From an uncultured Thermoplasmatales archaeon (GTDB lineage Archaea > Thermoplasmatota > E2 > DHVEG-1): 46,085 nucleotides of DNA. The stretch is taken from positions 1 through 46,085 of the forward strand of contig CAYMOC010000003.1 of NCBI GenBank assembly GCA_964391965.1, read 5' to 3'. Numbering within the stretch: the stretch's first letter is position 1; every line of letters begins with the position of its first letter. The notes beneath the pieces were generated by a model. The model was not told the origin of the DNA. It searched no databases and saw nothing but the letters and a program-made list of their open reading frames with translations. Shown here piece after piece: positions 2,062 to 43,623 of the stretch. Both the position numbers and the translations under genes were made by a program.

Positions 2062-2128
2062 GAATGATACCAAGCATTATATTAATTTACAAATATATAA
2101 ATTAATCGTAAAAATTGGGTGTTAATGA

Positions 2129-2500
2129 TTAATTCTTTTTTATATAGTCTATATAGTTGAGTTTATGCATTTGATATAAAAAGAAAAATAGCCGTTCTTC
2201 TATTTTTTCTTCATCCGGAAATTCTTTTTTTAGTTTTTCATGTATTTCTTCTATCGTTGTTTTACCATCACAGTTTTCCCAAACAATTGTTCCTATTTTA
2301 TCCATTTTAGCATAAAAAGTAGGGTCTTTTCTTATAAATTTACAAAAAGATTTCCCGAAGTTTGATTTAAACTTCGGTACTTTTATCTCAACAAGTCCAT
2401 CTTCATTTTTTGACCATTCAAAATCATTTCTTTTTGGCCTATATTTAAGGAATTCTTCAATTGTTGGTTGTTTTTTTTGTTTTTTGTTTTTATTCAGCAA
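2129..2500 (-). CDS. PqqD-like (RiPP-recognition-element-like) small protein
   Basis: 123-aa ORF. The C-terminal half, GTIVWENCDGKTTIEEIHEKLKKEFPDEEKIEERLFFFLYQMHKLNYIDY, fits the PqqD-family pattern (iW..cDG..t..EI...l...f......fl..l....I). The TTG start overlaps the stop region of the upstream OPT gene. The N-terminus is lysine-rich. Confidence 0.5.
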   Translation of the reverse strand: MLNKNKKQKKQPTIEEFLKYRPKRNDFEWSKNEDGLVEIKVPKFKSNFGKSFCKFIRKDPTFYAKMDKIGTIVWENCDGKTTIEEIHEKLKKEFPDEEKIEERLFFFLYQMHKLNYIDYIKKN

Positions 2501-29851: not shown

Positions 29852-30802
29852 ATGACGGGCGAGGGTATAGGTTTTGGAAAGGCTATTTTGTTTAATGAAC
29901 ATTTTGTAGTATATGGTGTACCATCTATTGTTTCAGCGATAGGTAAATACACTGTGGCAAAAGTTGAGGAATCTGATAAACCAGGTTGGCATCTAGAAGA
30001 TAATAGGAAAGCAACTCCTAATTATAAGGAAGATAAGATAGATCAACAAAAAGTATCCATTGATAACATAGTCAATAAAATGGATCTTGATTTATCAAAG
30101 AAAGGAGTAGATATTGTTCTTGAAGGAAACTTGTATTGTGCTAGTGGCATTGGTGCAAGTGCAGCATCCTGTGTAGCAATTGCTAGAGCTTTAGATGACC
30201 ATTTTGATTTAGATTTTTCAGATGAAGAAATAAATGATGTTGCCTATGAAGGAGAAAAAGGATATCATGGAACACCTTCTGGTGTTGATAACGCTGCATC
30301 AACTTTTGGAGGACTTATCTGGTTTCAGAAAGAAGACGGTAAAGTTATAGATCCAATTTCTGTTATGAGACCAGTTGAAATAGTTATAGGCAATACTGGA
30401 AAAGTCGCTGATACTGCTGCAGCTGTTGCCGGTGTAAAAGAAAGAAAAGAAAAAGATCCTGAGAAATACAAAGAAATTTTCAATAGAGCTGAGAATATAG
30501 CATATTTAGCTAAGGATGCTTTTCAAAATGAGGATTTAAAAGAAATAGGTAAACTTATGGATGAAAACCATAAACTCTTACAGCAGATAGAAGTATCAAA
30601 TAAAGAACTTGATTTTCTTGTTAAACTTGCTCGCGATCATGGCGCATGGGGTGCAAAACTTACTGGTGGAGGACTCGGTGGTAACATGATAGCTTTAACA
30701 CCTGGTCGTGATCTTCAGGATGAAGTTGCAACAGCTATTGAAAAAGAAGGTTTCCAAACCGTGAAAACTGTGGTTGGTGCAAGAAGGGATGGTAACAGGT
30801 AG
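29852..30802 (+). CDS. mvk: Mevalonate kinase
   Basis: GHMP kinase motifs: GKAILFNEHFVVYGVPSIV, GIGASAASCVAIARAL, KLTGGGLGGNMIAL. 316 aa. Confidence 0.88.
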   Translation: MTGEGIGFGKAILFNEHFVVYGVPSIVSAIGKYTVAKVEESDKPGWHLEDNRKATPNYKEDKIDQQKVSIDNIVNKMDLDLSKKGVDIVLEGNLYCASGIGASAASCVAIARALDDHFDLDFSDEEINDVAYEGEKGYHGTPSGVDNAASTFGGLIWFQKEDGKVIDPISVMRPVEIVIGNTGKVADTAAAVAGVKERKEKDPEKYKEIFNRAENIAYLAKDAFQNEDLKEIGKLMDENHKLLQQIEVSNKELDFLVKLARDHGAWGAKLTGGGLGGNMIALTPGRDLQDEVATAIEKEGFQTVKTVVGARRDGNR

Positions 30803-32113
30803 ATGTTCCTTCGTGATTTTTTGGAAAAACTAGAGAAAAATGGTAAACTCACACGAATAAAAAAACCAGTATCACATAAGTATGAAGTAGCTAATGTTAT
30901 TTATTCACTTGATGAACAACCTGTTATTTTTGATAATGTTAAAGGTTTTGATTTCCCAGTTTTTGCAGGTATTACAAGTAACCGTGATACTATAGCTGAA
31001 GGACTTGATACAACAAAAGAAAATCTTTTGTTTAAACTAGCTGATGCTTTAAATAAACCAGAAACACCTGAGATTGTTGATAAAGCTCCTTGTCAGGAAG
31101 TAGTTGTTGATAAACCAGATCTTGATAAAATTCCGATACTCTATAATCTTAAAGGCGATGGTGGACGTTATGGTTCAGCTACAGTTGCAACCATTAAAGA
31201 CCCTGAATCTGGTCGTAATGTTAGTTATCATCGACTTATGCAGGTTGGAAAAGACAGGTTTACTGCGCGACTTATCAAGAAAAGACAAACTCGAACTACT
31301 TATGATAAAATAGATGGAGACTTAGAAATGGCTGTATGCATTGGTAACAGCGTACCTGTGATGGTTGCAGCATCATTAGGGCCTCCCGCTGATGTTGACG
31401 AGTTTAGTATAGCTAATGCTCTTGATAAAACACCGATGGTTAAATGTAAAACTAAAGACCTTGAGGTACCTGCTGAATCAGAGTTTGTTTTTGAAGGACG
31501 TTTAACACGTGAATTAGATAAAGAAGGTCCATTTGTGGATTTAACTGAAACTCGTGATTTCGAACGTCAGGAACCAGTTTTTGTTGTAGATTGTATAACT
31601 CATAGAAAAGATGCCATGTACCAGGCACTCATACCTGGTCGATTGGAACATAAAACACTTATGGGTATGCCAAAGGAACCAACGATTTACAATGAGGTAA
31701 ACAAAGTTTGTGATTGTAAAAACGTACTTGTCACAATAGGCGGCGGTAGCTGGCTTCATGGAATAGTACAAATCAAAAAGAAACAACATGATGACCCGGA
31801 AAAAGCAATAGACGCAGCTTTCAAAGGCCATGGAAGCATGAAACATGTAGTCATAGTTGACGAAGATGTAAATATTTATGATCCTAATGCTGTCGAATGG
31901 GCTATTGCTACACGTTTCCAAGGAGATAAAGATCTTGTAGTCAAATCTGATCAACCCGGTAGTTCTTTGGATCCATCAGGCATTCATAAACCGGGTAAAA
32001 AAACCAGGACTGCAAAAGTTGGAGTGGATGCAACAATTCCATCTGATATAGATAAAGAAAAATATGAAACAGTAACCTACAAAAAAGTTGATTTGGATGA
32101 TTACCTCAGGTAA
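30803..32113 (+). CDS. UbiD-family decarboxylase, probable trans-anhydromevalonate 5-phosphate decarboxylase (archaeal mevalonate pathway)
   Basis: UbiD-like N-terminus LRDFLEKLEKNGKLTRIKKPVSHKYEVANV...PVIFDNVKGFDFPVFAGI. GPFVDLTETRDF sits where UbiD has GPFGE.tGyY. The gene abuts the mvk stop and lies next to the aconitase-X subunits. Confidence 0.75.
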   Translation: MFLRDFLEKLEKNGKLTRIKKPVSHKYEVANVIYSLDEQPVIFDNVKGFDFPVFAGITSNRDTIAEGLDTTKENLLFKLADALNKPETPEIVDKAPCQEVVVDKPDLDKIPILYNLKGDGGRYGSATVATIKDPESGRNVSYHRLMQVGKDRFTARLIKKRQTRTTYDKIDGDLEMAVCIGNSVPVMVAASLGPPADVDEFSIANALDKTPMVKCKTKDLEVPAESEFVFEGRLTRELDKEGPFVDLTETRDFERQEPVFVVDCITHRKDAMYQALIPGRLEHKTLMGMPKEPTIYNEVNKVCDCKNVLVTIGGGSWLHGIVQIKKKQHDDPEKAIDAAFKGHGSMKHVVIVDEDVNIYDPNAVEWAIATRFQGDKDLVVKSDQPGSSLDPSGIHKPGKKTRTAKVGVDATIPSDIDKEKYETVTYKKVDLDDYLR

Positions 32114-32414
32114 TGGAAGAACCAAAGTCTGGCTTAAAAAAGAAAAAGTAGATGATGATTTAGTTTTAATTGTTGGTGGTGGTGAGAAACCTCATATTGG
32201 AGCCACTGTTTTATGTGTACCCGGTGGAAAAACCCAGATTTTAAAATATGGTAAACATAAAGACCATATTGTTTTAAAACCATTAGCTGAGAAAGCCTGT
32301 AAGAAATACAAAAAAGTCGTTGTTGCAGTAGGTGGAATTCATATAAATAATGCTTCAAAACAAGAAATAGATGAGATTATTGATAATTGTAAGAGGTTAG
32401 AGGAATGTATTTAA
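32097..32414 (+). CDS. LpdD-like small protein (putative prenylated-FMN chaperone/partner of the UbiD enzyme)
   Basis: About 105 aa. LVLIVGGGEKPHIGATV and VAVGGIHINNASKQEIDEI resemble, from memory, the LpdD blocks (..IVVTGGTNPHIGDV.. and ..ITAGIHVNQITKAQI..). It overlaps the UbiD gene end by 17 nt and the next gene start by 10 nt. Confidence 0.45.
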   Translation: MITSGNGRTKVWLKKEKVDDDLVLIVGGGEKPHIGATVLCVPGGKTQILKYGKHKDHIVLKPLAEKACKKYKKVVVAVGGIHINNASKQEIDEIIDNCKRLEECI

Positions 32415-33589
32415 CAAAAGAAGAAGAACAAATCCTTGACGGAGAACAAGGGGAAGTTATGGAACGAATGTTTAGATTACTTGTTCGACTTGGTGACATC
32501 TATGGTGCTGATAAGATGATACCAGTTGGATCAGTGCAAGTTGCTGGTGTTTCATATAAATCCATTGGCGATCCGGGCACAGAATTTCTTGAAGATATGG
32601 CCGGGAAAAACGCTAAAGTTAAAGTTTTAACTTATTTGAATCCTGCCGGTATGGATTTGGAAAATTGGAAAAAACTTGGTTTTCCAAAAGATTTTGCAAA
32701 AAATCAGCTACGTATTATGGATGCTTTTAAAAAAATGGGGATTGTTGTAACAAGTACTTGCACACCATATTTGGCAGGGAATCTACCACGTTTCCGTGAG
32801 CATATAGCTTGGAGTGAAAGCAGTGCAGTTAGTTTTTCAAATAGTGTAATAGGTGCTCGTACAAACCGAGAAGGAGGACCCAGTGCTCTAGCTGCTGCAT
32901 TATGTGGTCGTACACCAAATTATGGTCTTCATCTCTGGGAAAACCGGCAGCCGGATTATGAAATAAAAGTTGATGTCGATATCACTTTTAACTCTGATTT
33001 TGGAGCACTTGGATCTATTGTTGGCAAAGAAGTGAAAAACAAGATCCCGTATTTTACTGGTATTAAAAATGCTGATACTGATCAACTCAAAAGCCTGGGA
33101 GCAGCTATGGCAGCAAGTGGGGCTGTAGCTATTTATCATGTAAAGGATTTAACCCCTGAAGCTGATCAGGTTGATAAAAAAAATCTTGAAACTATAAATG
33201 TTACACAAGAAGATCTTGACAAAGCATACGAGGAGCTGAGTTCGGGGAAAGAACCAGATATTGTAATACTTGGATGTCCTCATGCATCTCTTAAAGAAAT
33301 ATCAAGACTTTCTAATAAACTTGAAGGCAAGAAACTAAAAAAACCTGTTTGGATTTGTACAAGCCGTATGGTCAAAGAAGCAGCTAAACGTATGGGATAC
33401 AATGACATTATAGTTAAAGCCGGTGGGAACATAGTAGCTGATACATGTATGGTTGTAAGCCCTATTGAACAAATGGGATATCATACCACTGGTGTAAACA
33501 GCGGGAAAGCAGCTAAATACCTGCCAGGTTTCTGTAAACAAAAAGTTGCTTTTGCAAATATCGATAAACTTGTGGAGGGGCAACTATGA
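32405..33589 (+). CDS. Aconitase X family large subunit, probable phosphomevalonate dehydratase large subunit
   Basis: MYLTKEEEQILDGEQGEVMERMFRLLVRLGDIYGADKMIPVGSVQVAG is the typical N-terminus of AcnX catalytic (DUF521-type) proteins. The genomic context supports the call. Confidence 0.75.
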   Translation: MYLTKEEEQILDGEQGEVMERMFRLLVRLGDIYGADKMIPVGSVQVAGVSYKSIGDPGTEFLEDMAGKNAKVKVLTYLNPAGMDLENWKKLGFPKDFAKNQLRIMDAFKKMGIVVTSTCTPYLAGNLPRFREHIAWSESSAVSFSNSVIGARTNREGGPSALAAALCGRTPNYGLHLWENRQPDYEIKVDVDITFNSDFGALGSIVGKEVKNKIPYFTGIKNADTDQLKSLGAAMAASGAVAIYHVKDLTPEADQVDKKNLETINVTQEDLDKAYEELSSGKEPDIVILGCPHASLKEISRLSNKLEGKKLKKPVWICTSRMVKEAAKRMGYNDIIVKAGGNIVADTCMVVSPIEQMGYHTTGVNSGKAAKYLPGFCKQKVAFANIDKLVEGQL

Positions 33590-33972
33590 AAGGAAGAACC
33601 ATTAGCCCAGGTAAAGCAGAGGGAGAGGCAATAGTTTCAAAGGAACCAATTGGTTTTTATGGAAATGTTGACCCGAAAACAGGTGTTGTTATTGAGAAAG
33701 GAAACCCTCTTGAGGGAGAAAACATCAAAGATAAAATCCTTGTTTTTCCCTGTGGAAAAGGATCAACAGTAGGATCATATGTTATTTATGGTCTTGCAAA
33801 AAATGATGTTGGACCAAAAGCCATCATAAATGAGGAAACAGAAACCATTGTAGCAACCGGTGCAATACTAGCTGGTATTCCCTGTGTCGATCAGATTGAT
33901 ATTAAAAAAATAAAAACTGGTGACAAAATAAAAGTTGATGCTGATTCAGGGAATGTTGAAATAAAAAAATAA
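33586..33972 (+). CDS. Aconitase X family small (swivel) subunit, probable phosphomevalonate dehydratase small subunit
   Basis: MKGRTISPGKAEGEAIVSKEPIGFYGNVDPKTGVV...FPCGKGSTVGSYVIYGL is typical of DUF126-type swivel subunits. ATGA overlap with the large subunit. Confidence 0.75.
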   Translation: MKGRTISPGKAEGEAIVSKEPIGFYGNVDPKTGVVIEKGNPLEGENIKDKILVFPCGKGSTVGSYVIYGLAKNDVGPKAIINEETETIVATGAILAGIPCVDQIDIKKIKTGDKIKVDADSGNVEIKK

Positions 33973-33980
33973 TATTTTTT

Positions 33981-35423
33981 TTAATGTCTCATAGTCCAAA
34001 TGCAACCCGTTCCTTTTAGATCTACATCATAATCTGTGTTATCTTCAGACCAAACAATGCTGCCATCTATATTTGATCGTCCGATATTAACTCCTACTTT
34101 TGGAACGCTATTGAAAACTTTTTCATAGATGTTATCTGTTTCAACATCAACATCTAGTTTTATTCCATAGGTTTTTAACAAAGTCTGAGTAATATCTGGT
34201 TCAGCTTGAATATTTATATCAGTCGGTATTTTTACATTTCCAAAAATTGTTTTTGAATCGGTTTGTATCTGTATGTTTTTAAGTTCCGTTATAGTCTGAC
34301 CATTATCAGCTGTTACTATAACATTGGTGTATGGGTTTATTTTTGAATCTGAAGAAAGACTTCGTTCAGAGGTTATTAGATGATATTTACTGTAGTATAT
34401 ATTCCATCCATTGTTTAGTTTCATATGACAGAAATCCCAGCCTTTGATAAATGATTTTAATAAACCATTTGACCAGGTGTGATGGTGGTGACCGATGCCT
34501 TTAACGTTGTGTTCTTCTCCATCAATTTTAATTGTTCCAGTCATTTCAACGCCTGTAAAAATATAGCTTGCTATGCTAGTATCTCCTTTGTCAAAAAGTC
34601 CTTTACTTGTCCAAATTGGATCTGATTCAACATGACAACTTACATCTACAATTATATCATGATTTGTATCTATGTCATTATCTACTGCGTATATCTTCCA
34701 ATCTTCAGCTGAAGTTCCTTCAACCCATGAATCTTCAAATTTAATATCTACACCTGGTGAACCTGCCTGTAATGTTGGTTTATTTAAAAGACCAAGACCT
34801 CTTTCCTTGTTTATAATACCGCCGTATTCTTCTCCATCAGGGCTGTGAAGTGTTAAAACCATTGCATCAGGTTTCAATGTGGCCATAAGATCACCTCTAG
34901 CTAGATGCATAAAACTAATAGTTATAGTCCAATCAGCTAAATCACTGTCTTTATCAAAAACAGCTGTCCATGTCCACCATTCACGGTTTACCAAGAGTTT
35001 ATTATAGTGATATCCTTCATCTTCAGGTGAAACCACTTGTTTATTTGGAAGGAAAATAGACCCTGGAGGTTTTTCTTCTTCAAAAACCCAGCTTCCAATT
35101 ATTTCATTTGTAGGAGTATAAATTATCACAATTTTTCCGAAACAATCCCTAATTATATCATTTGGATCTACACTTCCCGATACCTCTGAAGTGTTACAAT
35201 TCCCTTGGATTTCAAATTCATCCCAGTTATAGTTTCCTCCTGAGATAAAAACTAAGATAAGCATGTTTTCTTGATTATCTTTTATAAAACGCATTTCTGG
35301 TGTTTCTTTTTCAGTTTCCTCAGGAAAATATCCTGCTTCAAAAAGTATTACAACTGATATAATAATCAGTGCTACTACTATTACTGCATCTATTTTCCTA
35401 ATTCTCCTTGGGTCTAAATTCAT
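33981..35423 (-). CDS. Membrane-anchored extracytoplasmic protein with AttH/CrtC-like (lipocalin-type) domain
   Basis: N-terminal TM anchor. SPEDEGYHYNKLLVNREWWTWTAVF resembles the AttH/CrtC start (fP.DhG.H.....EWWY.tg.l). The remainder looks beta-rich. Confidence 0.45.
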   Translation of the reverse strand: MNLDPRRIRKIDAVIVVALIIISVVILFEAGYFPEETEKETPEMRFIKDNQENMLILVFISGGNYNWDEFEIQGNCNTSEVSGSVDPNDIIRDCFGKIVIIYTPTNEIIGSWVFEEEKPPGSIFLPNKQVVSPEDEGYHYNKLLVNREWWTWTAVFDKDSDLADWTITISFMHLARGDLMATLKPDAMVLTLHSPDGEEYGGIINKERGLGLLNKPTLQAGSPGVDIKFEDSWVEGTSAEDWKIYAVDNDIDTNHDIIVDVSCHVESDPIWTSKGLFDKGDTSIASYIFTGVEMTGTIKIDGEEHNVKGIGHHHHTWSNGLLKSFIKGWDFCHMKLNNGWNIYYSKYHLITSERSLSSDSKINPYTNVIVTADNGQTITELKNIQIQTDSKTIFGNVKIPTDINIQAEPDITQTLLKTYGIKLDVDVETDNIYEKVFNSVPKVGVNIGRSNIDGSIVWSEDNTDYDVDLKGTGCIWTMRH

Positions 35424-36366: not shown

Positions 36367-36467
36367 AAAAAGTTATTCTCCTCCAAATCGATATATAAAA
36401 TCAATCTTTGATTTAAATTTTTTTGAATTAACAGTCAGAACGTTAATATCATAGTTTTTGGATTACA

Positions 36468-37016
36468 TTGAAACAATCTGGGGGTATTTCATTGGTAGAT
36501 AGAAAAAAGATTGAATCTGTTTTTGCTGAAGAATTAAGTTGGATTAAAAATGATGAACTAAAAGGTAAAGTAGTCCAGGCTTGGAAAAAAGCATCAGATA
36601 TCCGTGGTTGGAATTCTCTTGATGATGTTCCTTTTACTTTGCTTTTTGAAAACTCAGGTAAACTTACGGATCATACAAAACGGATAACTCATCTTGCTAA
36701 AGCAGTTTTTGATGAACGTGATGAAGACCTGAATCTTGATTTTTTGATAGCTGGAGCATTGCTTCATGATGTTGGAAAACTTTTAGAGTATGATATAGTA
36801 GATGGAAAAGTAGTAAAAGGCGAGTATGGTAAAAAATTCCGCCATCCTGTATCAGGAGCTCTGCTAGCCCGTGAAATTGGTCTCCCTGATGAAATAGTTC
36901 TTATTATTTATGCTCATAGTCATGAAGGAGATAAACTGGAAAGATCGCCTGAAAGTGTAATAGTTCACCATTGTGATTTTATTGATTTTCATATCAAAAA
37001 AGGGATGGTGCAATAA
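36468..37016 (+). CDS. HD-domain metal-dependent phosphohydrolase-like protein
   Basis: H...HD signature (GALLHDVGKLLEY) plus downstream IYAHSHEG and HHCDFID. Only a TTG start is available. The stop lies 5 nt before citF. Confidence 0.6.
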   Translation: MKQSGGISLVDRKKIESVFAEELSWIKNDELKGKVVQAWKKASDIRGWNSLDDVPFTLLFENSGKLTDHTKRITHLAKAVFDERDEDLNLDFLIAGALLHDVGKLLEYDIVDGKVVKGEYGKKFRHPVSGALLAREIGLPDEIVLIIYAHSHEGDKLERSPESVIVHHCDFIDFHIKKGMVQ

Positions 37017-37021
37017 AAAAA

Positions 37022-38512
37022 ATGGGTTTTGTAAAAAACGATGCAGACCGTAATGTCCCCAGTGATTTAAAAGGTGAAAAAATAAAACCGTTTTCTGGTG
37101 CTCATAAAAACCGTTGTGACTCAAAAATAGTAAATCTGAAGGATGCTTTGAAAAAAAGTGGTCTAAAAGATGGAATGACAATCAGTTTTCACCATCAACT
37201 CCGTAATGGAGACTATGTCGTTAATATGGTGCTTGATGCAATACGAGAGCTTGGTGCTAAAAACCAACGTCTTGCTCAAACAGCATTATTCCCTGTACAT
37301 GAACCAGTAATAGAACATATTAAAGAAGGAACAGTAACACGTATTGAAGGAAGTATAAATGGCACAGTTGGAGATTATGTATCAAAAAACCCGTTGCCAT
37401 ATCCGGTAATTTTACGATCTCATGGTGGACGATGGGCAGCTGTTAGAAATGGTGAACTAAAAATTGATATCGCGGTGGTTGCAGCATCAACAGCTGACAA
37501 ACGCGGTAACTGCACTGGCCTTATTGGAAAAAGTGCTTTCGGACCAATATGTTATTCCCAGGCAGATGTAGAAAAAGCAGACAAAGTAATAGTAGTTACA
37601 GATAATCTTGTGGAAAGACCCTGTCCCCAACAAGAGATAACAGAAAGACATGTAGATTACGTGGTAGAAGTTGACTGTATTGGCGATCCTGAAAATATTG
37701 TTAGTGGTTCACTTAAACTTACAAAAAACCCTATGAAGCTTGAAATTGGAAAAGAATGCATCAAACTTATGGATGCTGCCGGTCTTATCAAAAACGGTAT
37801 GATCTTTCAAGCAGGAGCTGGTGGTATATCCCTTGCTGCTTTAAAATATCTTGAAGAAAAATTAGAAGAAAAAAATGTTTATGCAACCTGTGAAACAGGT
37901 GGAGTCACAGATCATATTGTAAACATGTACAAAAAAGGGCTTGTTAAAAATGTTTATGGACTTCAATGTTTTGATGTTGAATCAATAAAATTTTTAGCGG
38001 AAAACCGGAAACTAATAACAGACATCGGCCATTATGCAGATCCAACAAATAAAGGTCGTTTTCTAGATGGATTAGATACAACTATCGTTGGAGCAACAGA
38101 GGTAGATGTAGATTTCAATATTAATGTAAATACTCATAGTGACGGCCGATTACTTCATGGAATAGGCGGACATCAGGACACCTGTTCAGCAGCAAGTCTT
38201 ACTATTGCCACTGTTCCAGTTTTTAGAAAAAAAATACCAGTGATTAGAGATAGTGTTACCACTCTGACAACACCTGGTGATGTAGTAGATGCAATTGTTA
38301 CAAATGAAGGAATAGCAATAAATCCACGTAGAAAGGATTTAATAAAAAAAGTAAAAGACAAAATCAATCTTATAAAAATTGAAGAATTACGTGATACGGC
38401 TTATGATGAAACTGGTGGCCCACCAGAACTTGATCTGGGTGATGAAATCATTGGTGTTACTAAATGGCGTGATGGTACACTTTTAGATGTAATATATAGA
38501 GTGAAGGAGTGA
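37022..38512 (+). CDS. citF: Citrate lyase alpha-subunit homolog (citrate CoA-transferase, CitF)
   Basis: Aligns over its full length with what I recall of E. coli CitF: SGLKDGMTISFHHQLRNGDYVVNMV, LRSHGGRWAAVRNGELKIDIAV, FQAGAGGISLAA, and the C-terminus WRDGTLLDVIYRVKE. Confidence 0.8.
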   Translation: MGFVKNDADRNVPSDLKGEKIKPFSGAHKNRCDSKIVNLKDALKKSGLKDGMTISFHHQLRNGDYVVNMVLDAIRELGAKNQRLAQTALFPVHEPVIEHIKEGTVTRIEGSINGTVGDYVSKNPLPYPVILRSHGGRWAAVRNGELKIDIAVVAASTADKRGNCTGLIGKSAFGPICYSQADVEKADKVIVVTDNLVERPCPQQEITERHVDYVVEVDCIGDPENIVSGSLKLTKNPMKLEIGKECIKLMDAAGLIKNGMIFQAGAGGISLAALKYLEEKLEEKNVYATCETGGVTDHIVNMYKKGLVKNVYGLQCFDVESIKFLAENRKLITDIGHYADPTNKGRFLDGLDTTIVGATEVDVDFNINVNTHSDGRLLHGIGGHQDTCSAASLTIATVPVFRKKIPVIRDSVTTLTTPGDVVDAIVTNEGIAINPRRKDLIKKVKDKINLIKIEELRDTAYDETGGPPELDLGDEIIGVTKWRDGTLLDVIYRVKE

Positions 38513-38520
38513 AAAAAATT

Positions 38521-39303
38521 ATGGAATGGGATAGTAAAATAACAAAAGTTGAGCCAAATCATCTTGTAACTCGGGGTTACCGTCAGGAAGATTTAATTGG
38601 AAATATTCCTTTTTCACATGTTGTCTATTTGCTTTTGAAAGGAGAGCTTCCATGTGAAGAACATGGTAAAATGATGGATGCAATACTTACTGCTTGTATA
38701 GATCATGGTGTCACACCACCTAGTGCTATGGCATCCCGTGTAGTTGCTAGTGGAGGAGTGCCTTTACCTACCGCTGTTGCCGCAGGAGTTTTAAGTATTG
38801 GTGATGCACATGGAGGAGCAATTGAAAAGGGTGCAAAATTTTTCCAGCAGGGAATAAAACGTATGAAAAAAGAAAAACTTTCTATTGAAGAAACTGCTGA
38901 GATTTTAGTAAAAGAATCACGTGAGAAACATAAACGTATTCTTGGCTTTGGACATCGAGTACACAAAGAAGACCCGCGAACTAAACGTTTATTTGAATTA
39001 TCAGAAGAACTTGATATATCAGATGATCATGTAGCTCTATCTAAGTCTATTGAAAAAGAACTAGAAAAAAACCTGGGTCGTAAACTTCCAATAAATGTTG
39101 ATGGAGCAATTGCTGCTATTAGTAGCGATATGGGTTTTGACTGGCGTCTTGGAAAAGGATTTTTCTTACTAGGGCGTGTAGCAGGTCTTACGGCTCAAGT
39201 ATATGAAGAACAAACAGATTTTAAACCTATGAGAAAGATGTTTAAAGTTGAAGCAGGGTACGATGGCCCTGAAGAACGAGAGATTCCAAGAAAGGAAAAA
39301 TAA
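38521..39303 (+). CDS. Citrate-synthase-fold small protein, citryl-CoA lyase-like
   Basis: About 260 aa. ILTACIDHGVTPPS and GFGHRVHKEDPRTKRL (the citrate synthase G.GH.v...DPR signature). ATG at 38521 with AGGAG 12 nt upstream. An alternative GTG at 38509 overlaps the citF stop. Confidence 0.7.
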   Translation: MEWDSKITKVEPNHLVTRGYRQEDLIGNIPFSHVVYLLLKGELPCEEHGKMMDAILTACIDHGVTPPSAMASRVVASGGVPLPTAVAAGVLSIGDAHGGAIEKGAKFFQQGIKRMKKEKLSIEETAEILVKESREKHKRILGFGHRVHKEDPRTKRLFELSEELDISDDHVALSKSIEKELEKNLGRKLPINVDGAIAAISSDMGFDWRLGKGFFLLGRVAGLTAQVYEEQTDFKPMRKMFKVEAGYDGPEEREIPRKEK

Positions 39304-39322
39304 AAAAATTTGGTGAATTTTT

Positions 39323-41125
39323 ATGGGTAAAACAATTATTCAAAAAATTTTTGAAAAACACTCCACTCAAGAAGCAAAAATTGGAGATATAATAGATATC
39401 GAAATTGATGTTCGAGTTGCTCGTGATTTCGGTGGAGCAAATGTTGTAAAAAATCTTGAAGAAAACAATCTTTCAGTTGATGATCCTGAAAAAACTTTTT
39501 TTACTTTTGACTGTAATCCTGGAGGCTGTGATCAGAAATATGCTGCAAACCAGCATATATGCCGGCGTTTCGCTAGAAAAAACAACATCAAAGTATATGA
39601 TATAAACCAGGGAATAGGAACACATTTGGTTATTGATGAAGGAATCGCAAAGCCTGGTGGAACAATAATAAGTACTGATTCTCATGCAAATATTTTGGGT
39701 GCTATTGGTGCTTTTGGACAGGGGATGGGTGATAAAGATATAGCTCATGCTTGGGGTCATGGAAAAATATGGTTTAAGGTTCCACCTACTTTAAAAATTG
39801 TTTTAAAAGGAAAACCAGGCGAAAAAACTTCAGCTAAAGATGTTGTTCTTAAAATGCTTGAGAAACTTGGGGCAAATGGCCTGCTTGGTTATGCTTGTGA
39901 AATATATGGTGAATATATTGATGATTTAACTCTTGATGGAAGAATTACTATTGCTTCAATGGCTACTGAGATGGGAGGGGTTATAATTTTTTTCCCACCA
40001 AACAAAAATGTTTTAGATTTTTATAAAAAAATGAATGTCACAGTTGAACCTGTATATGCAGATGATGATGCAGGTTATGAAAAAACAATAGAAATTGATA
40101 TATCAGATTTGAAACCAATGATTTCCCGCCCAGGTCATCCAGAAGATGTAGTAAAAGTAAATGAGTTAAAAAATGTCAAAGTTGATTCTGGTTTTATAGG
40201 GAGTTGTACTAACGGTCGTATCTCTGATATGCGTCAGGCAGCTGAAATTTTAAAAAATAAAAAAATAGCACCAGATCGTGTTTTAAAAATAGTTCCGAGT
40301 ACAGATAAACTATGGAAACAATGTCTTGAAGAAGGACTTATTAAAATTTTTAAAGAGGCTGGCGCGCTGGTTGGAAGCGCGGGTTGCGCTGGATGTGCCG
40401 CGGGTCAAATCGGTCAAACAGGTGAATTTGAAGTAGAATTATCAACGGGTAACCGTAATTATACAGGTAAACAAGGGAAAGGAGATGTATATTTGACGTC
40501 TCCTGCGACAGTTGCCGCAAGTCTTGTTTCAGGATACATAAATACTGAGGATAGAATACCAGGTAAAGCTGAAAAAGCAAAAGTACAATCTGAAAAAATT
40601 TTTGAATCAAAACGAGAAACAAAAAAATATGATTCACCGATGAAAGTTGAAGGAAGAGCATGGTTGATAAAAAAGGACAATATTGATACAGATATGATAT
40701 ATCATAACAGATATCTTAGTATAACAGATATTGAAGAAATGGGTCAGTACACTTTTGACAACCTAAAAGGGTATGAAGATTTTGCAGAAAAGGCTGAACC
40801 TGGTGATATAGTAGTTGCTGGTAAAAACTTTGGATGCGGAAGCAGTCGTCAGCAGGCCGTTGATTGTTTCAAAAGCCTTGGTATAAGTGTGATTATAGCT
40901 GAATCTTTTGGTTCAATCTATGAAAGAAATGCTATTAATAATGCTATGCCGATAATGGTGGCGAAAGATATAACCAAAAAAATTGATGATAAGGACGTTC
41001 TTGAGGTTGATTTTAAAAAGGGTCTTATAAAAAATAAAACAAAGAATCAATCTTATCAAGCTAAATCTTTTTCAAAATCACAGATTGAGATATACAAGCA
41101 TGGTGGATTATTAAATAAAAAATAG
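39323..41125 (+). CDS. Aconitase-superfamily hydro-lyase, fused large + small (swivel) domains (IPM-isomerase/homoaconitase/Aquifex-type aconitase-like)
   Basis: LeuC/HacA-like N-terminus TIIQKIFEKHS. Fe-S cysteines in GSCTNGR and GCAGCAAG. A Lys/Glu-rich linker, then a LeuD-like domain (GRAWLIKKDNIDTDMI, GKNFGCGSSRQQA). Confidence 0.75.
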   Translation: MGKTIIQKIFEKHSTQEAKIGDIIDIEIDVRVARDFGGANVVKNLEENNLSVDDPEKTFFTFDCNPGGCDQKYAANQHICRRFARKNNIKVYDINQGIGTHLVIDEGIAKPGGTIISTDSHANILGAIGAFGQGMGDKDIAHAWGHGKIWFKVPPTLKIVLKGKPGEKTSAKDVVLKMLEKLGANGLLGYACEIYGEYIDDLTLDGRITIASMATEMGGVIIFFPPNKNVLDFYKKMNVTVEPVYADDDAGYEKTIEIDISDLKPMISRPGHPEDVVKVNELKNVKVDSGFIGSCTNGRISDMRQAAEILKNKKIAPDRVLKIVPSTDKLWKQCLEEGLIKIFKEAGALVGSAGCAGCAAGQIGQTGEFEVELSTGNRNYTGKQGKGDVYLTSPATVAASLVSGYINTEDRIPGKAEKAKVQSEKIFESKRETKKYDSPMKVEGRAWLIKKDNIDTDMIYHNRYLSITDIEEMGQYTFDNLKGYEDFAEKAEPGDIVVAGKNFGCGSSRQQAVDCFKSLGISVIIAESFGSIYERNAINNAMPIMVAKDITKKIDDKDVLEVDFKKGLIKNKTKNQSYQAKSFSKSQIEIYKHGGLLNKK

Positions 41126-41269
41126 AATTTTTTAAAATTGTATTTTTTTATAACTTTTTGTTATTTTTTATCAGTAATGTTAGTTTATCTGTTAGATTAG
41201 TTACATTAACTTTTTATATATTTAATTATTTATAAAATTTATTAGCTTTTTTAGCTAATGGCGATATAG

Positions 41270-41644: not shown

Positions 41645-42916
41645 TTATTTAAATTTTTTAAAAAGGTTAAGTTTTGTAATACTTCCAGTTATTAATTTAT
41701 CTGTTTTAAAAACCCATACCACGATTGATATCATAATTATTGCAAAAACTGCAACATAGATTATACCTGCTAAAACAAAAAGATAATCATCAAATATCAA
41801 AGCTCGTGGTGCCATCATTGGATGGCTAAAAGGTATAGCAAAAATAATTGCTTGAAGCGCAGGTGGAAGCGTGTCGAAATCTGAAAACATGATAATAAGC
41901 ATAGGTATAATTGTTAGAATTGTTACAGGAAATGTTAGACTTTGAGCAGTTTTATAGTTTTTAGCAAGACTACCCAGGAGCATACATAAAGATAAAGCTG
42001 CTATTAAGGTTACAAAAACTGTTATACCTATAATTACAAAATCAGATGTTGTTGAAATAAGGTTATACTTGGATAAATCAATGTTTGATCCAAACTGAAA
42101 AGACTGGTTATAATAACTTAAACCCACCATATAGATTAGCGCTAGAATTAAACCAATAACTGCACTAGCAATAATTTTTCCAGCAACAATACTTGTCCGG
42201 TTTACTGGTAGAGTTAGTAGTGTTTCAAGTGTTTTATTTTCTTTTTCAAGTGCCATACTGCTTATTACTATTCCACCGCTCATGATGATTATAAGCATTA
42301 GAATAATTGGAATAGTTGTAGATTGAGAAGATAATACCCCTCCGATTTCGCTAGGTGTAAGGCTTTCATATTCGTTGTTTTTAAAAAAGGTGGTGCTATT
42401 TGTATATGTTGGGGTTAAAACACTTGATGCATTGGTGATATTTTTTTGTTGAATAAGAGTCGATGAAATATTCTGGTTGATATTCTGCATCAATAGATTT
42501 ACTGCTTCTGAAGATACTGTATCCATTAAACCTGCGCCTTTCATAATCCAGTAAACCTGGATTTCGCCGGGTATGCCATTGTTTATATTTTCTGAAAAAC
42601 CATCAGGGATTACAAGTAATGCTAAACCATCCTTTGTTTTTATAGTATCAATTGCCTGATTTTTATCAGATAAAATAGTGGAATTATATACTATCTCTGC
42701 TTCGGATTGTAAAACATTTTCAACATTATAGGTCAGATTTCCTTGATCAAGGTTGATGTAACCAATTATTGGTTTATCATCCATTTCTTCTTCTATGCCA
42801 CCAATAGTTCCACCCATTGAACCAAAAATTATAGCCATTATGATTATCGGTAGAAACGTTGCGGGTGTAATAAGTTCCTTTAACTCTTTTTTTATAATGT
42901 TTCCCAAGTGTTTCAT
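41645..42916 (-). CDS. ABC-2 type transporter permease (NatB-like, with large extracytoplasmic loop)
   Basis: An N-terminal TM segment, a ~170-aa loop, then five or six C-terminal TM segments. It overlaps the upstream ATPase gene by 4 nt. Confidence 0.7.
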   Translation of the reverse strand: MKHLGNIIKKELKELITPATFLPIIIMAIIFGSMGGTIGGIEEEMDDKPIIGYINLDQGNLTYNVENVLQSEAEIVYNSTILSDKNQAIDTIKTKDGLALLVIPDGFSENINNGIPGEIQVYWIMKGAGLMDTVSSEAVNLLMQNINQNISSTLIQQKNITNASSVLTPTYTNSTTFFKNNEYESLTPSEIGGVLSSQSTTIPIILMLIIIMSGGIVISSMALEKENKTLETLLTLPVNRTSIVAGKIIASAVIGLILALIYMVGLSYYNQSFQFGSNIDLSKYNLISTTSDFVIIGITVFVTLIAALSLCMLLGSLAKNYKTAQSLTFPVTILTIIPMLIIMFSDFDTLPPALQAIIFAIPFSHPMMAPRALIFDDYLFVLAGIIYVAVFAIIMISIVVWVFKTDKLITGSITKLNLFKKFK

Positions 42917-43623
42917 TGTACCACCTTTGTAAATACTTCCTCAATGTTGTTTACATTGTATTTTCCCATTAGTTGTTTTGGTTTACCTGTTTCAACAATT
43001 TTTCCCTCTGAAATCAAAGCTATTCGATCACACATATATTCTACTTCTAGCATATTATGAGAAGAAAGTAAAACAGATGTTCCATCCTCTGTAGTATTTT
43101 TTATTATTTTTCTGATTTCTTGAGCGTTTTGAACATCAAGACCGCTAGTTGGTTCATCAAGTATTGCAAGACGAGGATTAGTCATCAAAGCTCGTCCAGC
43201 AAGAAGACGACGTTTCATACCTTTACTATATGTTTCAACTTTGTCGTTTATTCTATTGCCTAAATCAGCGATTTTTATACCTTCCGACACCATTTCTTTT
43301 TTATGATCAAAAAAATTTGCTATAAAATCAAGATATTCTCTACCAGTTAGATTTTTATAAGCACCAGCATCTTCAGGAAGATAACTAATAATTTTACGTA
43401 TTTCTTCAGGGTTTTTCTTTAAATCATAGTTAAGTATTTTTACAGATCCAGAAGTTATAGTTAAAAGAGTTGATAGGATTCGAAGAATAGTTGTTTTACC
43501 TGCACCATTTGGTCCAATCAGTCCAAAAATTTCTGATTTTTCAACATTAAAACTAACGCCTTGTACTGCTTTTACATCACCATAATGTTTTACAAGGTTT
43601 TGAACTTCAACAGTCTTTGACAT
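42913..43623 (-). CDS. ABC transporter ATP-binding protein (ABC-2/NatA-like)
   Basis: Walker A GPNGAGKTT, signature-like YSKGMKRRL, Walker B LAILDEPTSGLD, H-loop SSHNM. Confidence 0.88.
   Translation of the reverse strand: MSKTVEVQNLVKHYGDVKAVQGVSFNVEKSEIFGLIGPNGAGKTTILRILSTLLTITSGSVKILNYDLKKNPEEIRKIISYLPEDAGAYKNLTGREYLDFIANFFDHKKEMVSEGIKIADLGNRINDKVETYSKGMKRRLLAGRALMTNPRLAILDEPTSGLDVQNAQEIRKIIKNTTEDGTSVLLSSHNMLEVEYMCDRIALISEGKIVETGKPKQLMGKYNVNNIEEVFTKVVQ

What the first reader, a model, noticed from the sequence alone, without database searches (positions are those of the whole stretch)
36468..41125. HD / CitF / citrate-synthase-fold lyase / fused aconitase operon: possible ACP-independent, CoA-transferase-driven citrate module
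Four genes are tightly linked: a 5-nt gap between HD and citF, the citF stop within or beside the next gene's start region, and a 19-nt gap before the aconitase-type gene. CitF is a full-length homolog of the citrate lyase alpha subunit (citrate CoA-transferase). None of its canonical partners is present: no CitD acyl carrier protein, no CitE beta subunit, and no CitC/CitG/CitX. It is followed instead by a ~260-aa citrate-synthase-fold protein with the GFGHRVHKEDPR signature. This is the type known as citryl-CoA lyase in the Hydrogenobacter two-enzyme citrate cleavage, where it pairs with an ATP-dependent citryl-CoA synthetase. Pairing it with a CoA-transferase would give ATP-independent citrate cleavage: citrate + acyl-CoA gives citryl-CoA, which then gives oxaloacetate + acetyl-CoA. 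Run in reverse, it would act as a citrate synthase that conserves the thioester by passing CoA to an acid. The fused LeuC/LeuD-like hydro-lyase resembles the Aquifex-type putative aconitase and would link the module to isocitrate. The substrate could instead be a citrate analogue such as citramalate or methylcitrate.
Basis: partly seen in the sequence, partly recalled or inferred. Interest (0 to 1): 0.65.

Follow-up and report, generated by a model that had tools for sequence, protein, structure and literature searches.

The report
Carrier-free citrate-cleavage operon in archaea
An uncultured sediment archaeon (Thermoplasmatota) has an operon that pairs the CoA-transferase subunit of bacterial citrate lyase with a citrate-synthase-like citryl-CoA lyase instead of its usual carrier-protein and lyase partners; the pairing is conserved in dozens of related genomes, probably splits (or makes) citrate through free citryl-CoA, and I found no paper that describes or tests it.

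Summary
Four co-directional genes lie 5, 8 and 19 nt apart: an HD-domain protein, a full-length CitF, a CCL (a 260-aa citrate-synthase-fold protein 51% identical to Hydrogenobacter citryl-CoA lyase), and a fused LeuC/LeuD-type Fe-S hydro-lyase (ACN).

Among 80 species-level Thermoplasmatota loci:
- CCL directly follows CitF in 66 of 70 testable cases.
- HD precedes CitF in 61 of 71.
- The hydro-lyase follows CCL in 36 of 59.

No CitD, CitE, CitC, CitG, CitX or CCS/SCS-like gene lies within ±10 kb. The exception is one basal locus with a canonical citD-citE-citF, which serves as a positive control.

The best reading is an acyl-carrier-independent, two-enzyme citrate lyase that works on free CoA esters. 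Cleavage is the thermodynamically favoured direction.

Published Thermoprofundales reconstructions scored this CCL as their "citrate synthase" and ruled out a reductive TCA cycle because aclAB was missing. The pairing therefore changes how carbon metabolism in this abundant benthic group should be read.

Still untested:
- the biochemistry and the CoA donor;
- the role of the HD protein;
- the substrate of the hydro-lyase (some genomes carry a separate aconitase);
- genome-wide absence of citD/citE.

It is a new variant of a known kind and moderately to highly interesting.

The parts
36367..36491 (+). A/T-rich intergenic leader upstream of the HD gene. It holds a TATA-like ATATATAAAA at 36393-36402 and GGGGGT just before the probable start codon. 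Putative archaeal promoter and RBS region.
   Evidence: Read directly from the sequence. Not tested: the promoter scanner covers sigma-70 sites only. No Rfam family matches.
36492..37016 (+). HD/HDIG-domain metal-dependent hydrolase-like protein, first gene of the operon, function unknown. The longest ORF starts at 36468; the probable start is TTG 36492, giving 174 aa.
   Evidence: PF01966 E 1e-11 and TIGR00277 HDIG. About 1,089 homologues, the nearest 120 at 69% identity or more and 173-175 aa long. Invariant H69, H100-D101, H126, H150 and D170. AF2 pLDDT 92, with only generic HD-fold matches. Directly upstream of CitF in 61 of 71 loci.
37022..38512 (+). CitF homologue, 496 aa: citrate lyase alpha subunit, a class II CoA-transferase (citrate CoA-transferase type).
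   Evidence: PF04223 E 5e-139; TIGR01584 514.9 bits against a cutoff of 501.45. 385 and 378 bits to the CitF structures 2HJ0 and 1XR4. 38% identical to E. coli CitF. Hundreds of Thermoplasmatota homologues at 63-93% identity.
38521..39303 (+). Citrate-synthase-fold citryl-CoA lyase (CCL), 260 aa from ATG 38521. The longest ORF starts at GTG 38509.
   Evidence: NF004866 301 bits against 245, and NF004869 298 against 212, both 'citryl-CoA lyase'. E 3e-73 and 51% identity to H. thermophilus CCL 6HXP. H66, H149, D198, R157, R223 and R242 are conserved in at least 97% of 67 orthologues. Directly downstream of CitF in 66 of 70 loci.
39323..41125 (+). Fused LeuC/LeuD-type [4Fe-4S] hydro-lyase of the aconitase superfamily, 600 aa. 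Putative aconitase; substrate not established.
   Evidence: PF00330 plus PF00694. NF001614 403 bits against 385. Below the cutoffs of the aconitase, IPMI and HACN equivalogs. Cys295, Cys355 and Cys358 are invariant in 35 orthologues. The specificity-loop motif is YL[S/H/A/T][I/V]T, against YLRT in HACN and YLVY in IPMI. Follows CCL in 36 of 59 loci.
41126..41165 (+). T-rich stretch after the last gene (TTTTTTAAAATTGTATTTTTTTA), of the kind archaeal terminators use. Probable operon end.
   Evidence: Read directly from the sequence. The next conserved genes (ABC transporter, 41645-43623) are on the opposite strand.

Best explanation
The operon encodes a two-enzyme, acyl-carrier-protein-independent citrate lyase that works on free CoA thioesters.

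**Proposed reactions**
1. The CitF homologue transfers CoA from acetyl-CoA (possibly another acyl-CoA) to citrate, giving (3S)-citryl-CoA plus the free acid.
2. The CS-fold CCL cleaves citryl-CoA to oxaloacetate plus acetyl-CoA, and that acetyl-CoA re-enters step 1.
3. With acetyl-CoA as donor the net reaction is citrate -> oxaloacetate + acetate. This is the chemistry of the bacterial CitDEF complex, but with soluble CoA in place of the CitD prosthetic group and a non-homologous lyase (citrate-synthase fold) in place of the TIM-barrel CitE.
4. Where present, the fused LeuC/LeuD-type Fe-S hydro-lyase most likely links the module to isocitrate or cis-aconitate.
5. The HD protein is a conserved accessory of unknown role.

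**Direction.** I favour cleavage in vivo, for example draining 2-oxoglutarate or glutamate carbon through isocitrate and citrate to oxaloacetate plus acetate, or closing a reductive TCA route.

**Shown:** gene content, family membership, conserved catalytic residues, conserved adjacency, and local absence of CitD/CitE/CCS.

**Inferred:** substrates, use of free CoA esters, the CoA donor and the direction.
For: - **Families.** CitF is above the equivalog cutoff and CCL above the subfamily cutoff.
- **CCL.** 51% identical to the biochemically characterised H. thermophilus CCL. The catalytic His/His/Asp and the three carboxylate-binding Arg residues are invariant.
- **Conserved order.** CitF-CCL are adjacent in 66 of 70 testable loci from distinct Thermoplasmatota species genomes, with gaps of about -10 to +20 nt.
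- **Survives reshuffled flanks.** Adjacency is kept in the ~50%-identity clade (L075-77, L080) with wholly different flanks.
- **Survives a changed partner.** It is also kept where the partner is a longer CS-like protein (L068, L071, L073).
- **Canonical partners absent.** phmmer on six-frame translations of 80 loci plus the window finds CitD/CitE only in L079, a canonical citD-citE-citF locus without CCL. CitC, CitG and CitX are found nowhere. No SucC/SucD- or CCS-like gene is present.
- **Tree.** The CCL-linked CitFs form one large clade, and the CitDE-linked L079 is basal.
- **Chemical precedent.** Class II CoA-transferases are the alpha subunits of citrate and citramalate lyase and act through a ternary complex (PMC9196870). 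From my own knowledge, the isolated alpha subunit and deacetyl-citrate lyase work with free acetyl-CoA (Dimroth & Eggerer 1975; Buckel et al. 1973).
- **Thermodynamics.** CCL is near equilibrium (-2.1 kJ/mol). Citrate-synthase-type cleavage costs +38 kJ/mol. Coupling to net acetyl-CoA hydrolysis (about -32 to -36 kJ/mol standard, own knowledge) makes citrate -> OAA + acetate roughly -10 to -15 kJ/mol at 1 mM (inference).
Against: - No enzyme of this clade has been assayed.
- Genome-wide absence of citD/citE/citC/citG/citX could not be tested; only ±10 kb per genome was examined.
- No citrate transporter is linked to the operon, so an exogenous citrate source is not indicated.
- Published Thermoprofundales MAG tables list no citrate synthase homologue other than this CCL, bar one divergent 34%-identity hit in one MAG. 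That argues the pair might be needed in the synthetic direction.
- A Methanomassiliicoccales MAG (L080) also carries the pair. If it is a methanogen like the cultured members of that order (own knowledge), it has no obvious need to cleave citrate.
- The hydro-lyase is absent from 23 of 59 loci and is redundant with a separate aconitase in at least SG8-52-3.
- The conserved HD protein is unaccounted for.
Confidence: 0.55

Rival explanations
1. Same two enzymes, opposite physiological direction: a 'split' citrate synthase. CCL condenses oxaloacetate and acetyl-CoA to citryl-CoA. CitF then passes the CoA to acetate, succinate or another acid instead of letting it be hydrolysed, which conserves the thioester. 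The hydro-lyase (or the separate aconitase) and IDH carry citrate on to 2-oxoglutarate for glutamate synthesis.
For: - In nine published Thermoprofundales MAGs nearly all K01647 'citrate synthase' calls are these ~256-aa CCLs, including the very genes of L028, L053 and L030. One MAG also has a divergent 34%-identity hit.
- Those MAGs also have aconitase and IDH.
- A Methanomassiliicoccales MAG (L080) carries CitF-CCL; members of that order would be expected to need only anabolic 2-oxoglutarate (own knowledge).
- L073 places CitF and a CS-like protein in one string with LeuCD-type and Iso_dh-type genes, which is the order of a 2-oxoacid-forming branch.
Against: - Oxaloacetate + acetyl-CoA + acid -> citrate + acyl-CoA loses one solute and has a standard free energy near zero. 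At micromolar oxaloacetate and millimolar acid, equilibrium citrate would be sub-micromolar (inference from the values plus textbook thioester energies).
- MAG incompleteness could hide a normal citrate synthase.
- Peptide fermenters obtain glutamate directly.
Confidence: 0.2
2. The module acts on a citrate analogue. One option is 2-methylcitrate: propionyl-CoA plus oxaloacetate, with CitF recycling CoA onto propionate and the LeuCD-type enzyme making 2-methylisocitrate. Other options are a homocitrate- or citramalate-type acid.
For: - L060 has a PrpB-like (methylisocitrate-lyase family) gene directly after CCL, 256 bits against a cutoff of 354.
- The hydro-lyase loop motif YL[S/H/A/T][I/V]T matches neither characterised class. 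The enzyme is an extra paralogue beside a dedicated aconitase in SG8-52-3.
- L073 links the pair to HacA/HacB/AksF-like genes.
- The alpha subunit of citramalate lyase is a CitF homologue.
Against: - CitF passes the citF equivalog cutoff.
- CCL is 51% identical to a proven citryl-CoA lyase and keeps all three Arg residues that bind the oxaloacetate/citrate carboxylates. This argues against citramalyl-CoA, though not against methylcitryl-CoA.
- The PrpB-like neighbour occurs in only 1 of 80 loci.
Confidence: 0.12
3. It is an ordinary ACP-dependent citrate lyase whose citD, citE and activation genes lie elsewhere in the genome. The CCL is an unrelated neighbour.
For: Only ±10 kb per genome was searched. 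One Thermoplasmata lineage (L079) does have citD-citE-citF.
Against: - In L079 and in E. coli the partner genes are contiguous with citF.
- In 79 other loci none is within 10 kb, while CCL occupies the adjacent slot in 66 of 70.
- The adjacency survives complete turnover of the flanking genes.
Confidence: 0.05
4. CCL alone is a small, slow citrate synthase. The CitF homologue is a general acyl-CoA:acid CoA-transferase, for example for acetate or succinate activation, co-transcribed for unrelated reasons.
For: H. thermophilus CCL was reported to have weak citrate synthase activity (own recollection of Aoshima et al. 2004, not checked here). JGI and KEGG pipelines call the protein citrate synthase.
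Against: CitF scores as a citF equivalog and only marginally against other CoA-transferase families, at E 7e-5 or worse. Strict two-gene linkage across CitF identities of 50-93% argues for a shared intermediate.
Confidence: 0.05

Closest known systems
Bacterial citrate lyase complex CitDEF (EC 4.1.3.6; partial reactions EC 2.8.3.10 and EC 4.1.3.34), with CitC/CitG/CitX
   Same: A homologous alpha subunit: CitF, 38% identical to the E. coli protein and above the TIGR01584 cutoff. The proposed two-step chemistry is the same (CoA/ACP transfer onto citrate, then citryl-thioester cleavage), with the same net reaction and no ATP.
   Different: No CitD carrier protein, no CitE TIM-barrel lyase and no prosthetic-group or activation genes nearby. 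The lyase step is assigned to a non-homologous citrate-synthase-fold protein, and the thioester carrier would be free CoA. An HD-domain protein is added.
Two-step citrate cleavage of Hydrogenobacter thermophilus: citryl-CoA synthetase (CCS) plus citryl-CoA lyase (CCL)
   Same: An orthologous-type CCL (51% identity to 6HXP). Free citryl-CoA is the intermediate.
   Different: Citryl-CoA would be made by a CoA-transferase rather than by an ATP-dependent succinyl-CoA-synthetase-like ligase. No CCS/SCS-like gene lies within 10 kb in any of the 80 loci. The hosts are anaerobic heterotrophic archaea, not Aquificota autotrophs.
ATP-citrate lyase (AclAB/ACLY)
   Same: Its C-terminal module is a CCL/CS-fold domain that cleaves enzyme-bound citryl-CoA, giving the same products (oxaloacetate plus acetyl-CoA).
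   Different: ACL makes citryl-CoA through citryl-phosphate at the cost of ATP, on one polypeptide or complex. Here activation is by thioester exchange and the components are separate.
Citrate synthase, including its reversed use in the roTCA cycle
   Same: The same fold and catalytic triad. Citryl-CoA is the intermediate.
   Different: The window protein lacks about 110 N-terminal residues of citrate synthase and scores 10-100 bits against citrate synthase equivalogs whose cutoffs are 330-590. It presumably does not hydrolyse citryl-CoA, and CoA transfer replaces hydrolysis.
Citramalate lyase of Clostridium tetanomorphum (CoA-transferase alpha, lyase beta, ACP gamma)
   Same: A class II CoA-transferase paired with a lyase. 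This shows that the CitF family can serve citrate analogues.
   Different: It is also ACP-dependent with a CitE-type lyase, and its substrate lacks the third carboxylate that the conserved Arg residues of the CCL here should bind.

Membership tests
Citrate lyase complex (CitDEF) | Alpha subunit CitF (citrate CoA-transferase, PF04223 / TIGR01584) | tested here: met
   TIGR01584 514.9 bits against a cutoff of 501.45, near full length. 385 bits to 2HJ0.
Citrate lyase complex (CitDEF) | Beta subunit CitE (HpcH/HpaI TIM-barrel citryl-ACP lyase) encoded with citF | tested here: not met
   phmmer with E. coli and L079 CitE on six-frame translations of the window and 80 loci hits L079 only. Whole genomes were not searched.
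Citrate lyase complex (CitDEF) | Gamma subunit CitD (ACP carrying 2'-(5''-phosphoribosyl)-3'-dephospho-CoA) | tested here: not met
   CitD (PF06857) is found only in L079. Gaps of 5, 8 and 19 nt leave no room for a hidden small ORF. Whole genomes were not searched.
Citrate lyase complex (CitDEF) | Activation genes citC, citG and citX | tested here: not met
   No hit at E <= 0.01 in the window or in any locus. The queries were E. coli proteins, so sensitivity for divergent archaeal forms is limited.
CCS/CCL citrate cleavage (Hydrogenobacter type) | Citryl-CoA lyase of the citrate-synthase fold, about 260 aa | tested here: met
   NF004866 301 bits against 245. 51% identity to 6HXP. Catalytic H/H/D and three Arg residues invariant.
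CCS/CCL citrate cleavage (Hydrogenobacter type) | ATP-dependent citryl-CoA synthetase (two SCS-like subunits) | tested here: not met
   phmmer with E. coli SucC/SucD gives no hit in the window or 80 loci at E <= 1e-3. SCS genes do exist elsewhere in related MAGs, and whether any acts as CCS is unknown.
Citrate synthase | Full-length enzyme of about 370 aa or more, reaching the citrate synthase equivalog scores | tested here: not met
   The Pfam match covers only model positions 165-355 of 357. The best citrate synthase models score 99 bits or less against cutoffs of 330-590.
Citrate synthase | Hydrolysis of citryl-CoA (release of free CoA) | not testable with these tools
   Needs an enzyme assay (DTNB).
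Aconitase (aconitate hydratase) | Aconitase-superfamily fold with three Cys ligands for a [4Fe-4S] cluster | tested here: met
   PF00330 plus PF00694. C295, C355 and C358 invariant in 35 of 35 orthologues.
Aconitase (aconitate hydratase) | Score above a curated aconitate-hydratase model (PRK07229, TIGR01342, AcnA, AcnB) | tested here: not met
   322.9 bits against 612; 252.8 against 719; AcnA/AcnB models far lower. Only the generic NF001614 family passes, at 403 against 385.
Isopropylmalate isomerase / homoaconitase (LeuCD, HacAB) | Small-subunit specificity loop YLVY (IPMI) or YLRT (HACN) | tested here: not met
   The window has YLSI; orthologues have YL[S/H/A/T][I/V]. The equivalog cutoffs are not reached.
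HD-domain phosphohydrolases | H...HD...D metal-binding motif and the HD fold | tested here: met
   PF01966 and TIGR00277. Invariant H69, H100-D101 and D170, plus H126 and H150. AF2 pLDDT 92. Foldseek matches HD proteins only, best YhaM at E 2e-5. No subfamily or substrate could be assigned.

The most novel reading that the evidence does not exclude
The CitF homologue takes CoA from succinyl-CoA (or another energy-linked acyl-CoA) rather than from acetyl-CoA. Citrate + succinyl-CoA then give succinate + oxaloacetate + acetyl-CoA. This would be a previously unrecognised functional equivalent of ATP-citrate lyase. It would close a reductive TCA cycle, or a reversible citrate node, in Thermoprofundales and related Thermoplasmatota, organisms currently scored as lacking citrate cleavage because aclAB is absent. 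In this reading the HD protein tailors or regulates the CoA cofactor pool for the system.
Probability: 0.15. Interest if true: 0.85.

Novelty: new variant of a known kind. Interest (0 to 1): 0.62.

Why it matters
**Enzymology.** Citrate cleavage is currently attributed to four systems: CitDEF, ACL, CCS/CCL and reversed citrate synthase. A CoA-transferase plus CS-fold lyase would be a fifth arrangement. It would be a hybrid in which a non-homologous lyase and free CoA replace two subunits and three maturation genes of the bacterial complex.

**Ecology.** Thermoprofundales (MBG-D) and their relatives are described as cosmopolitan and widespread in anoxic marine sediments.
- Published reconstructions counted this CCL as 'citrate synthase' and excluded a reductive TCA cycle because aclAB was missing.
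- If the pair is a citrate lyase, the direction and role of their TCA enzymes need re-evaluation, including amino-acid fermentation through isocitrate and citrate, and possible CO2 assimilation.
- Marker-gene surveys of carbon fixation would miss the system.

**Evolution.** It also bears on the proposed relationship between CCL modules and citrate synthase. Some loci (L068, L071, L073) pair CitF with a longer, more citrate-synthase-like protein.

**Testability.** The hypothesis needs only two recombinant proteins and a malate-dehydrogenase-coupled assay.

Tried and rejected
- **Literature.** None returned a paper that describes a CitF plus CCL pairing. The library lacks most subscription papers; Verschueren 2019 and Dimroth & Eggerer 1975 are not held.
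- **Transcription.** No RNA run holds the window's operon. For the orthologous L053 locus, only one 208-nt metatranscriptome contig matches, inside citF. That is too little to show co-transcription.
- **HD protein.** The AF2 model is confident, but Foldseek against the PDB gave only generic HD-fold matches. No function could be inferred.
- **Hidden carrier protein.** The small conserved ORFs upstream of HD are a zinc-ribbon protein and an acidic 90-aa protein, not ACP-like.
- **RNA elements.** No Rfam family and no tRNA in the window.
- **Neighbourhood clues.** The frequent downstream neighbour f14 is a B12-binding radical-SAM protein and looks unrelated. Neighbours in the 50%-identity clade are thioredoxin-like, TPR and beta-oxidation-type genes. 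IDH-like and PrpB-like neighbours occur in one locus each.
- **Aquifex-type aconitase.** Rejected for the hydro-lyase on model scores.
- **Rest of the window.** Pfam annotation found no other TCA gene.

Full report
**1. What is in the sequence**

Between 36468 and 41125 there are four ORFs on the + strand.

- **Gaps.** HD stop to citF ATG is 5 nt. The citF stop is TGA at 38510-12. CCL stop to the next ATG is 19 nt.
- **Two start codons need correcting.**
  - Homologues of the first protein are 173-175 aa and begin MVEKKDIE. The HD gene therefore probably starts at TTG 36492, not 36468.
  - Homologues of the third protein are 256-260 aa and begin MEWD. It therefore probably starts at ATG 38521, 8 nt after the citF stop, with GGAG upstream, rather than at the overlapping GTG 38509.
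- **Operon end.** A run of T-rich sequence follows the last gene, and the next conserved genes are on the other strand.

**2. Family assignments**

| Gene | Assignment | Key scores |
|---|---|---|
| 1 | HD/HDIG domain protein | PF01966 E 1e-11; TIGR00277 |
| 2 | Full-length CitF | PF04223 E 5e-139; TIGR01584 equivalog 514.9 bits vs cutoff 501.45 |
| 3 | Citryl-CoA lyase (CCL) | NF004866 301 bits vs 245; matches only the C-terminal half of the Pfam citrate synthase model; far below every citrate synthase equivalog |
| 4 | LeuC-LeuD fusion of the aconitase superfamily (ACN) | Passes only the generic NF001614 family (403 vs 385); misses PRK07229 (323 vs 612), TIGR01342 (253 vs 719) and the IPMI and homoaconitase equivalogs |

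Against solved structures:
- The CCL matches Hydrogenobacter thermophilus citryl-CoA lyase 6HXP at E 3e-73, with 51% identity over 248 aligned residues.
- CitF matches the two CitF structural-genomics entries.
- The hydro-lyase matches the Methanocaldococcus homoaconitase and isopropylmalate isomerase subunits best.

**3. Host and surroundings**

The window is archaeal. It encodes TFIIB, aRF1, an archaeal-type ThrRS editing domain and PurP.
- It carries oligopeptide transporters and C1 and C11 peptidases.
- It has a mevalonate-pathway-like cluster (GHMP kinase, UbiD-like, AcnX large and small) just upstream of the operon.
- The nearest homologues of all four proteins are from Thermoplasmatota MAGs.
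- DNA runs that hold the sequence are sediment and hypersaline-lake metagenomes.
- The window has no other TCA gene and no CitD, CitE, CitC, CitG, CitX or CitT.

**4. Comparative genomics**

A scan of one genome per GTDB species with a CitF alignment found 496 relatives. The best 80 were returned, and all are Thermoplasmatota. They include SG8-52-3, SM1-50, M11B2D and M9B1D, which are published Thermoprofundales/MBG-D MAGs, and three complete MAG chromosomes.

*Gene order* (tblastn with the window proteins and an all-against-all ORF clustering):

| Arrangement | Loci showing it | Testable loci |
|---|---|---|
| CCL directly downstream of CitF | 66 | 70 |
| HD directly upstream of CitF | 61 | 71 |
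| Fused hydro-lyase directly after CCL | 36 | 59 |

- Intergenic distances are about -10 to +20 nt throughout.
- Where the hydro-lyase is missing, the next gene is usually an unrelated B12/radical-SAM protein.
- Flanking genes vary, but the core does not.
- In a clade whose CitF is only about 50% identical (L075-77, L080, including a Methanomassiliicoccales chromosome), CitF-CCL stand alone as a pair among entirely different neighbours and without HD.

*The four exceptions:*
- L063 and L067 are second CitF copies in genomes that also have the operon.
- L078 has CitF followed by a LeuC-like gene.
- L079 has a canonical citD (PF06857), citE (HpcH_HpaI) and citF.

*Partner searches:*
- L079 is a useful positive control. 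phmmer on six-frame translations of all loci plus the window recovers CitD and CitE there and nowhere else. CitC, CitG and CitX are found nowhere.
- SucC/SucD-like genes, which would indicate a citryl-CoA synthetase, are also absent from all loci.
- In an NJ tree the CCL-linked CitFs form one large clade, with L079 and L078 basal.

**5. Variants that inform function**

- **Longer CS-like partner.** In L068, L071 and L073 the protein after CitF is a longer CS-like protein of 347-360 aa. It covers nearly the whole Pfam citrate synthase model, yet still scores best against the CCL models and far below the citrate synthase cutoffs.
- **L073 gene string.** LeuC2-LeuD2-HD-CitF-CS-like-HacA-like-HacB-like-AksF/IPMDH-like.
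  - The upstream LeuD2 has the loop YLTV, the same type as the window's fused enzyme (YLSI).
  - The downstream LeuD has a Lys where homoaconitase has Arg.
- **L060.** A methylisocitrate-lyase-family gene follows CCL, below the model cutoff.
- These contexts tie CitF and the CS-fold protein to tricarboxylate isomerisation and oxidative decarboxylation chemistry. They do not fix the substrate.

**6. Residue-level checks**

- **CCL.** Across 67 CCL/CS-like partners, the equivalents of citrate synthase His274, His320 and Asp375 (H66, H149, D198) are conserved in at least 97%. So are three Arg residues (R157, R223, R242) that I equate, from memory of the pig enzyme, with Arg329, Arg401 and Arg421. 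This fits an oxaloacetate-derived tricarboxylic thioester: citryl-CoA, or possibly methylcitryl-CoA.
- **Hydro-lyase.** It keeps the three cluster cysteines. Its small-domain specificity loop is YL[S/H/A/T][I/V]T, against YLRT in homoaconitase and YLVY in isopropylmalate isomerase.
- **HD protein.** It has invariant H69, H100-D101, H126, H150 and D170 and folds confidently (pLDDT 92). Its only structural neighbours are generic HD proteins.

**7. Published context**

Zhou et al. 2019 (PMC6461988) concluded that Thermoprofundales run the TCA cycle only oxidatively, because aclAB and frdAB are absent.
- Their supplementary table shows that the K01647 'citrate synthase' calls in nine MAGs are, with one divergent exception, these ~256-aa CCLs.
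- They include 3300003432D_scaffold_3_22, M11B2D_scaffold_138_6 and SG8-52-3 KYK33157. These are the CCL genes of my loci L028, L053 and L030.
- The same MAGs carry a separate K01681 aconitase next to a K00031 IDH.
- From its self-hit bit score, that aconitase is about 650 aa and so differs from the 586-aa operonic enzyme of SG8-52-3 (inference).
- CitF is not mentioned in that paper or its held supplements.
- None of ten full-text searches found a description of a CitF plus CCL system.
- Carbon-fixation surveys use only ACL and CCS/CCL as citrate-cleavage markers.

**8. Mechanism**

I conclude that CitF and the CS-fold lyase form a functional pair that shares free citryl-CoA.

The proposed cycle:
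1. Citrate + acetyl-CoA -> citryl-CoA + acetate (CitF).
2. Citryl-CoA -> oxaloacetate + acetyl-CoA (CCL).

This is the catalytic cycle of bacterial citrate lyase with soluble CoA in place of the ACP prosthetic group.
- Class II CoA-transferases act through a ternary complex without a covalent enzyme intermediate.
- From my own knowledge, the isolated alpha subunit and deacetyl-citrate lyase accept free acetyl-CoA.

Thermodynamics:
- Citryl-CoA cleavage is near equilibrium, and citrate-synthase reversal costs about +38 kJ/mol.
- Adding the free energy of acetyl-CoA hydrolysis (own knowledge) makes citrate -> oxaloacetate + acetate roughly isoergonic at 1 M and about -10 to -15 kJ/mol at 1 mM.
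- The reverse direction, a thioester-conserving citrate synthase, is correspondingly disfavoured whatever the acceptor acid, because it consumes three solutes to make two (inference).
- I therefore favour cleavage. One example is a redox-neutral route from glutamate/2-oxoglutarate through isocitrate and citrate to oxaloacetate plus acetate in these peptide fermenters.

The apparent lack of any other citrate synthase in these MAGs, and the presence of the pair in a Methanomassiliicoccales genome, keep the anabolic reading alive. I give it 0.2.

**9. What remains open**

- The CoA donor. Acetyl-CoA is the most parsimonious choice. Succinyl-CoA would make the system an ACL equivalent.
- The HD protein.
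- The substrate of the LeuCD-type enzyme.
- Whether citD/citE exist elsewhere in these genomes.
- Expression. The only trace is one 208-nt metatranscriptome contig inside the L053 citF.

**10. Verdict**

It is a new variant of a known kind of system, with real consequences for annotating an abundant archaeal group.

Noticed in passing
window 29852-33972: A GHMP kinase, a UbiD-like decarboxylase, a small PAC-like protein, and the AcnX large and swivel subunits lie in one co-directional cluster. It looks like the archaeal modified mevalonate pathway (phosphomevalonate dehydratase plus decarboxylase) rather than an 'aconitase'. Published MBG-D tables list the AcnX orthologues as 'predicted aconitase'.
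   Followed up: partly
window 85-4523, 17007-18464, 22437-24293: Two tandem OPT oligopeptide transporters, a clostripain-family (C11) peptidase, and a papain-family (C1) peptidase with a BACON/Ig-like tail. This fits a detrital-protein-degrading lifestyle.
   Followed up: partly
window 33981-35423 (-): A 480-aa protein with an N-terminal membrane helix and only a sub-threshold CrtC-lipocalin hit. It is conserved between AcnX and the HD gene in 44 of the related loci. Function unknown.
   Followed up: no
L079 7626-11554: One Thermoplasmata MAG has a canonical citD-citE-citF, but no citC, citG or citX within 10 kb. A 393-aa ORF with no Pfam hit lies directly upstream and could be an unrecognised activation or maturation factor.
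   Followed up: partly
L073 7749-15275; L071; L068 5143-6225: A sister lineage pairs HD-CitF with a longer CS-like protein (347-360 aa). In L073 this sits with two LeuCD pairs and an AksF/IPMDH-like dehydrogenase in one string. It may be an intermediate form between CCL and citrate synthase, or a 2-oxoacid elongation module.
   Followed up: partly
L060 5392-6339: A methylisocitrate-lyase/PEP-mutase-family gene (TIGR02317, 256 bits against a cutoff of 354) directly follows CCL in one MAG. This hints at a methylcitrate-type variant.
   Followed up: partly
L063 1806-3296; L067 3654-5150: Second CitF copies, without HD or CCL, in MAGs that also carry the full operon (the same isolates as L026 and L029). 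They sit next to a sulfotransferase and a papain-family peptidase respectively. Role unknown.
   Followed up: no
window 26422-28014 (-), 28780-29742 (+): Two LPG_synthase_TM-family membrane proteins, one of them fused to a SAM methyltransferase domain, lie close together. This is possibly lipid head-group modification.
   Followed up: no
L053 7254-7461: A single 208-nt contig from a marine-sediment metatranscriptome run (X32) matches the 3' part of citF at 99% identity. It is the only RNA trace found for the operon, and DNA carry-over cannot be excluded.
   Followed up: partly
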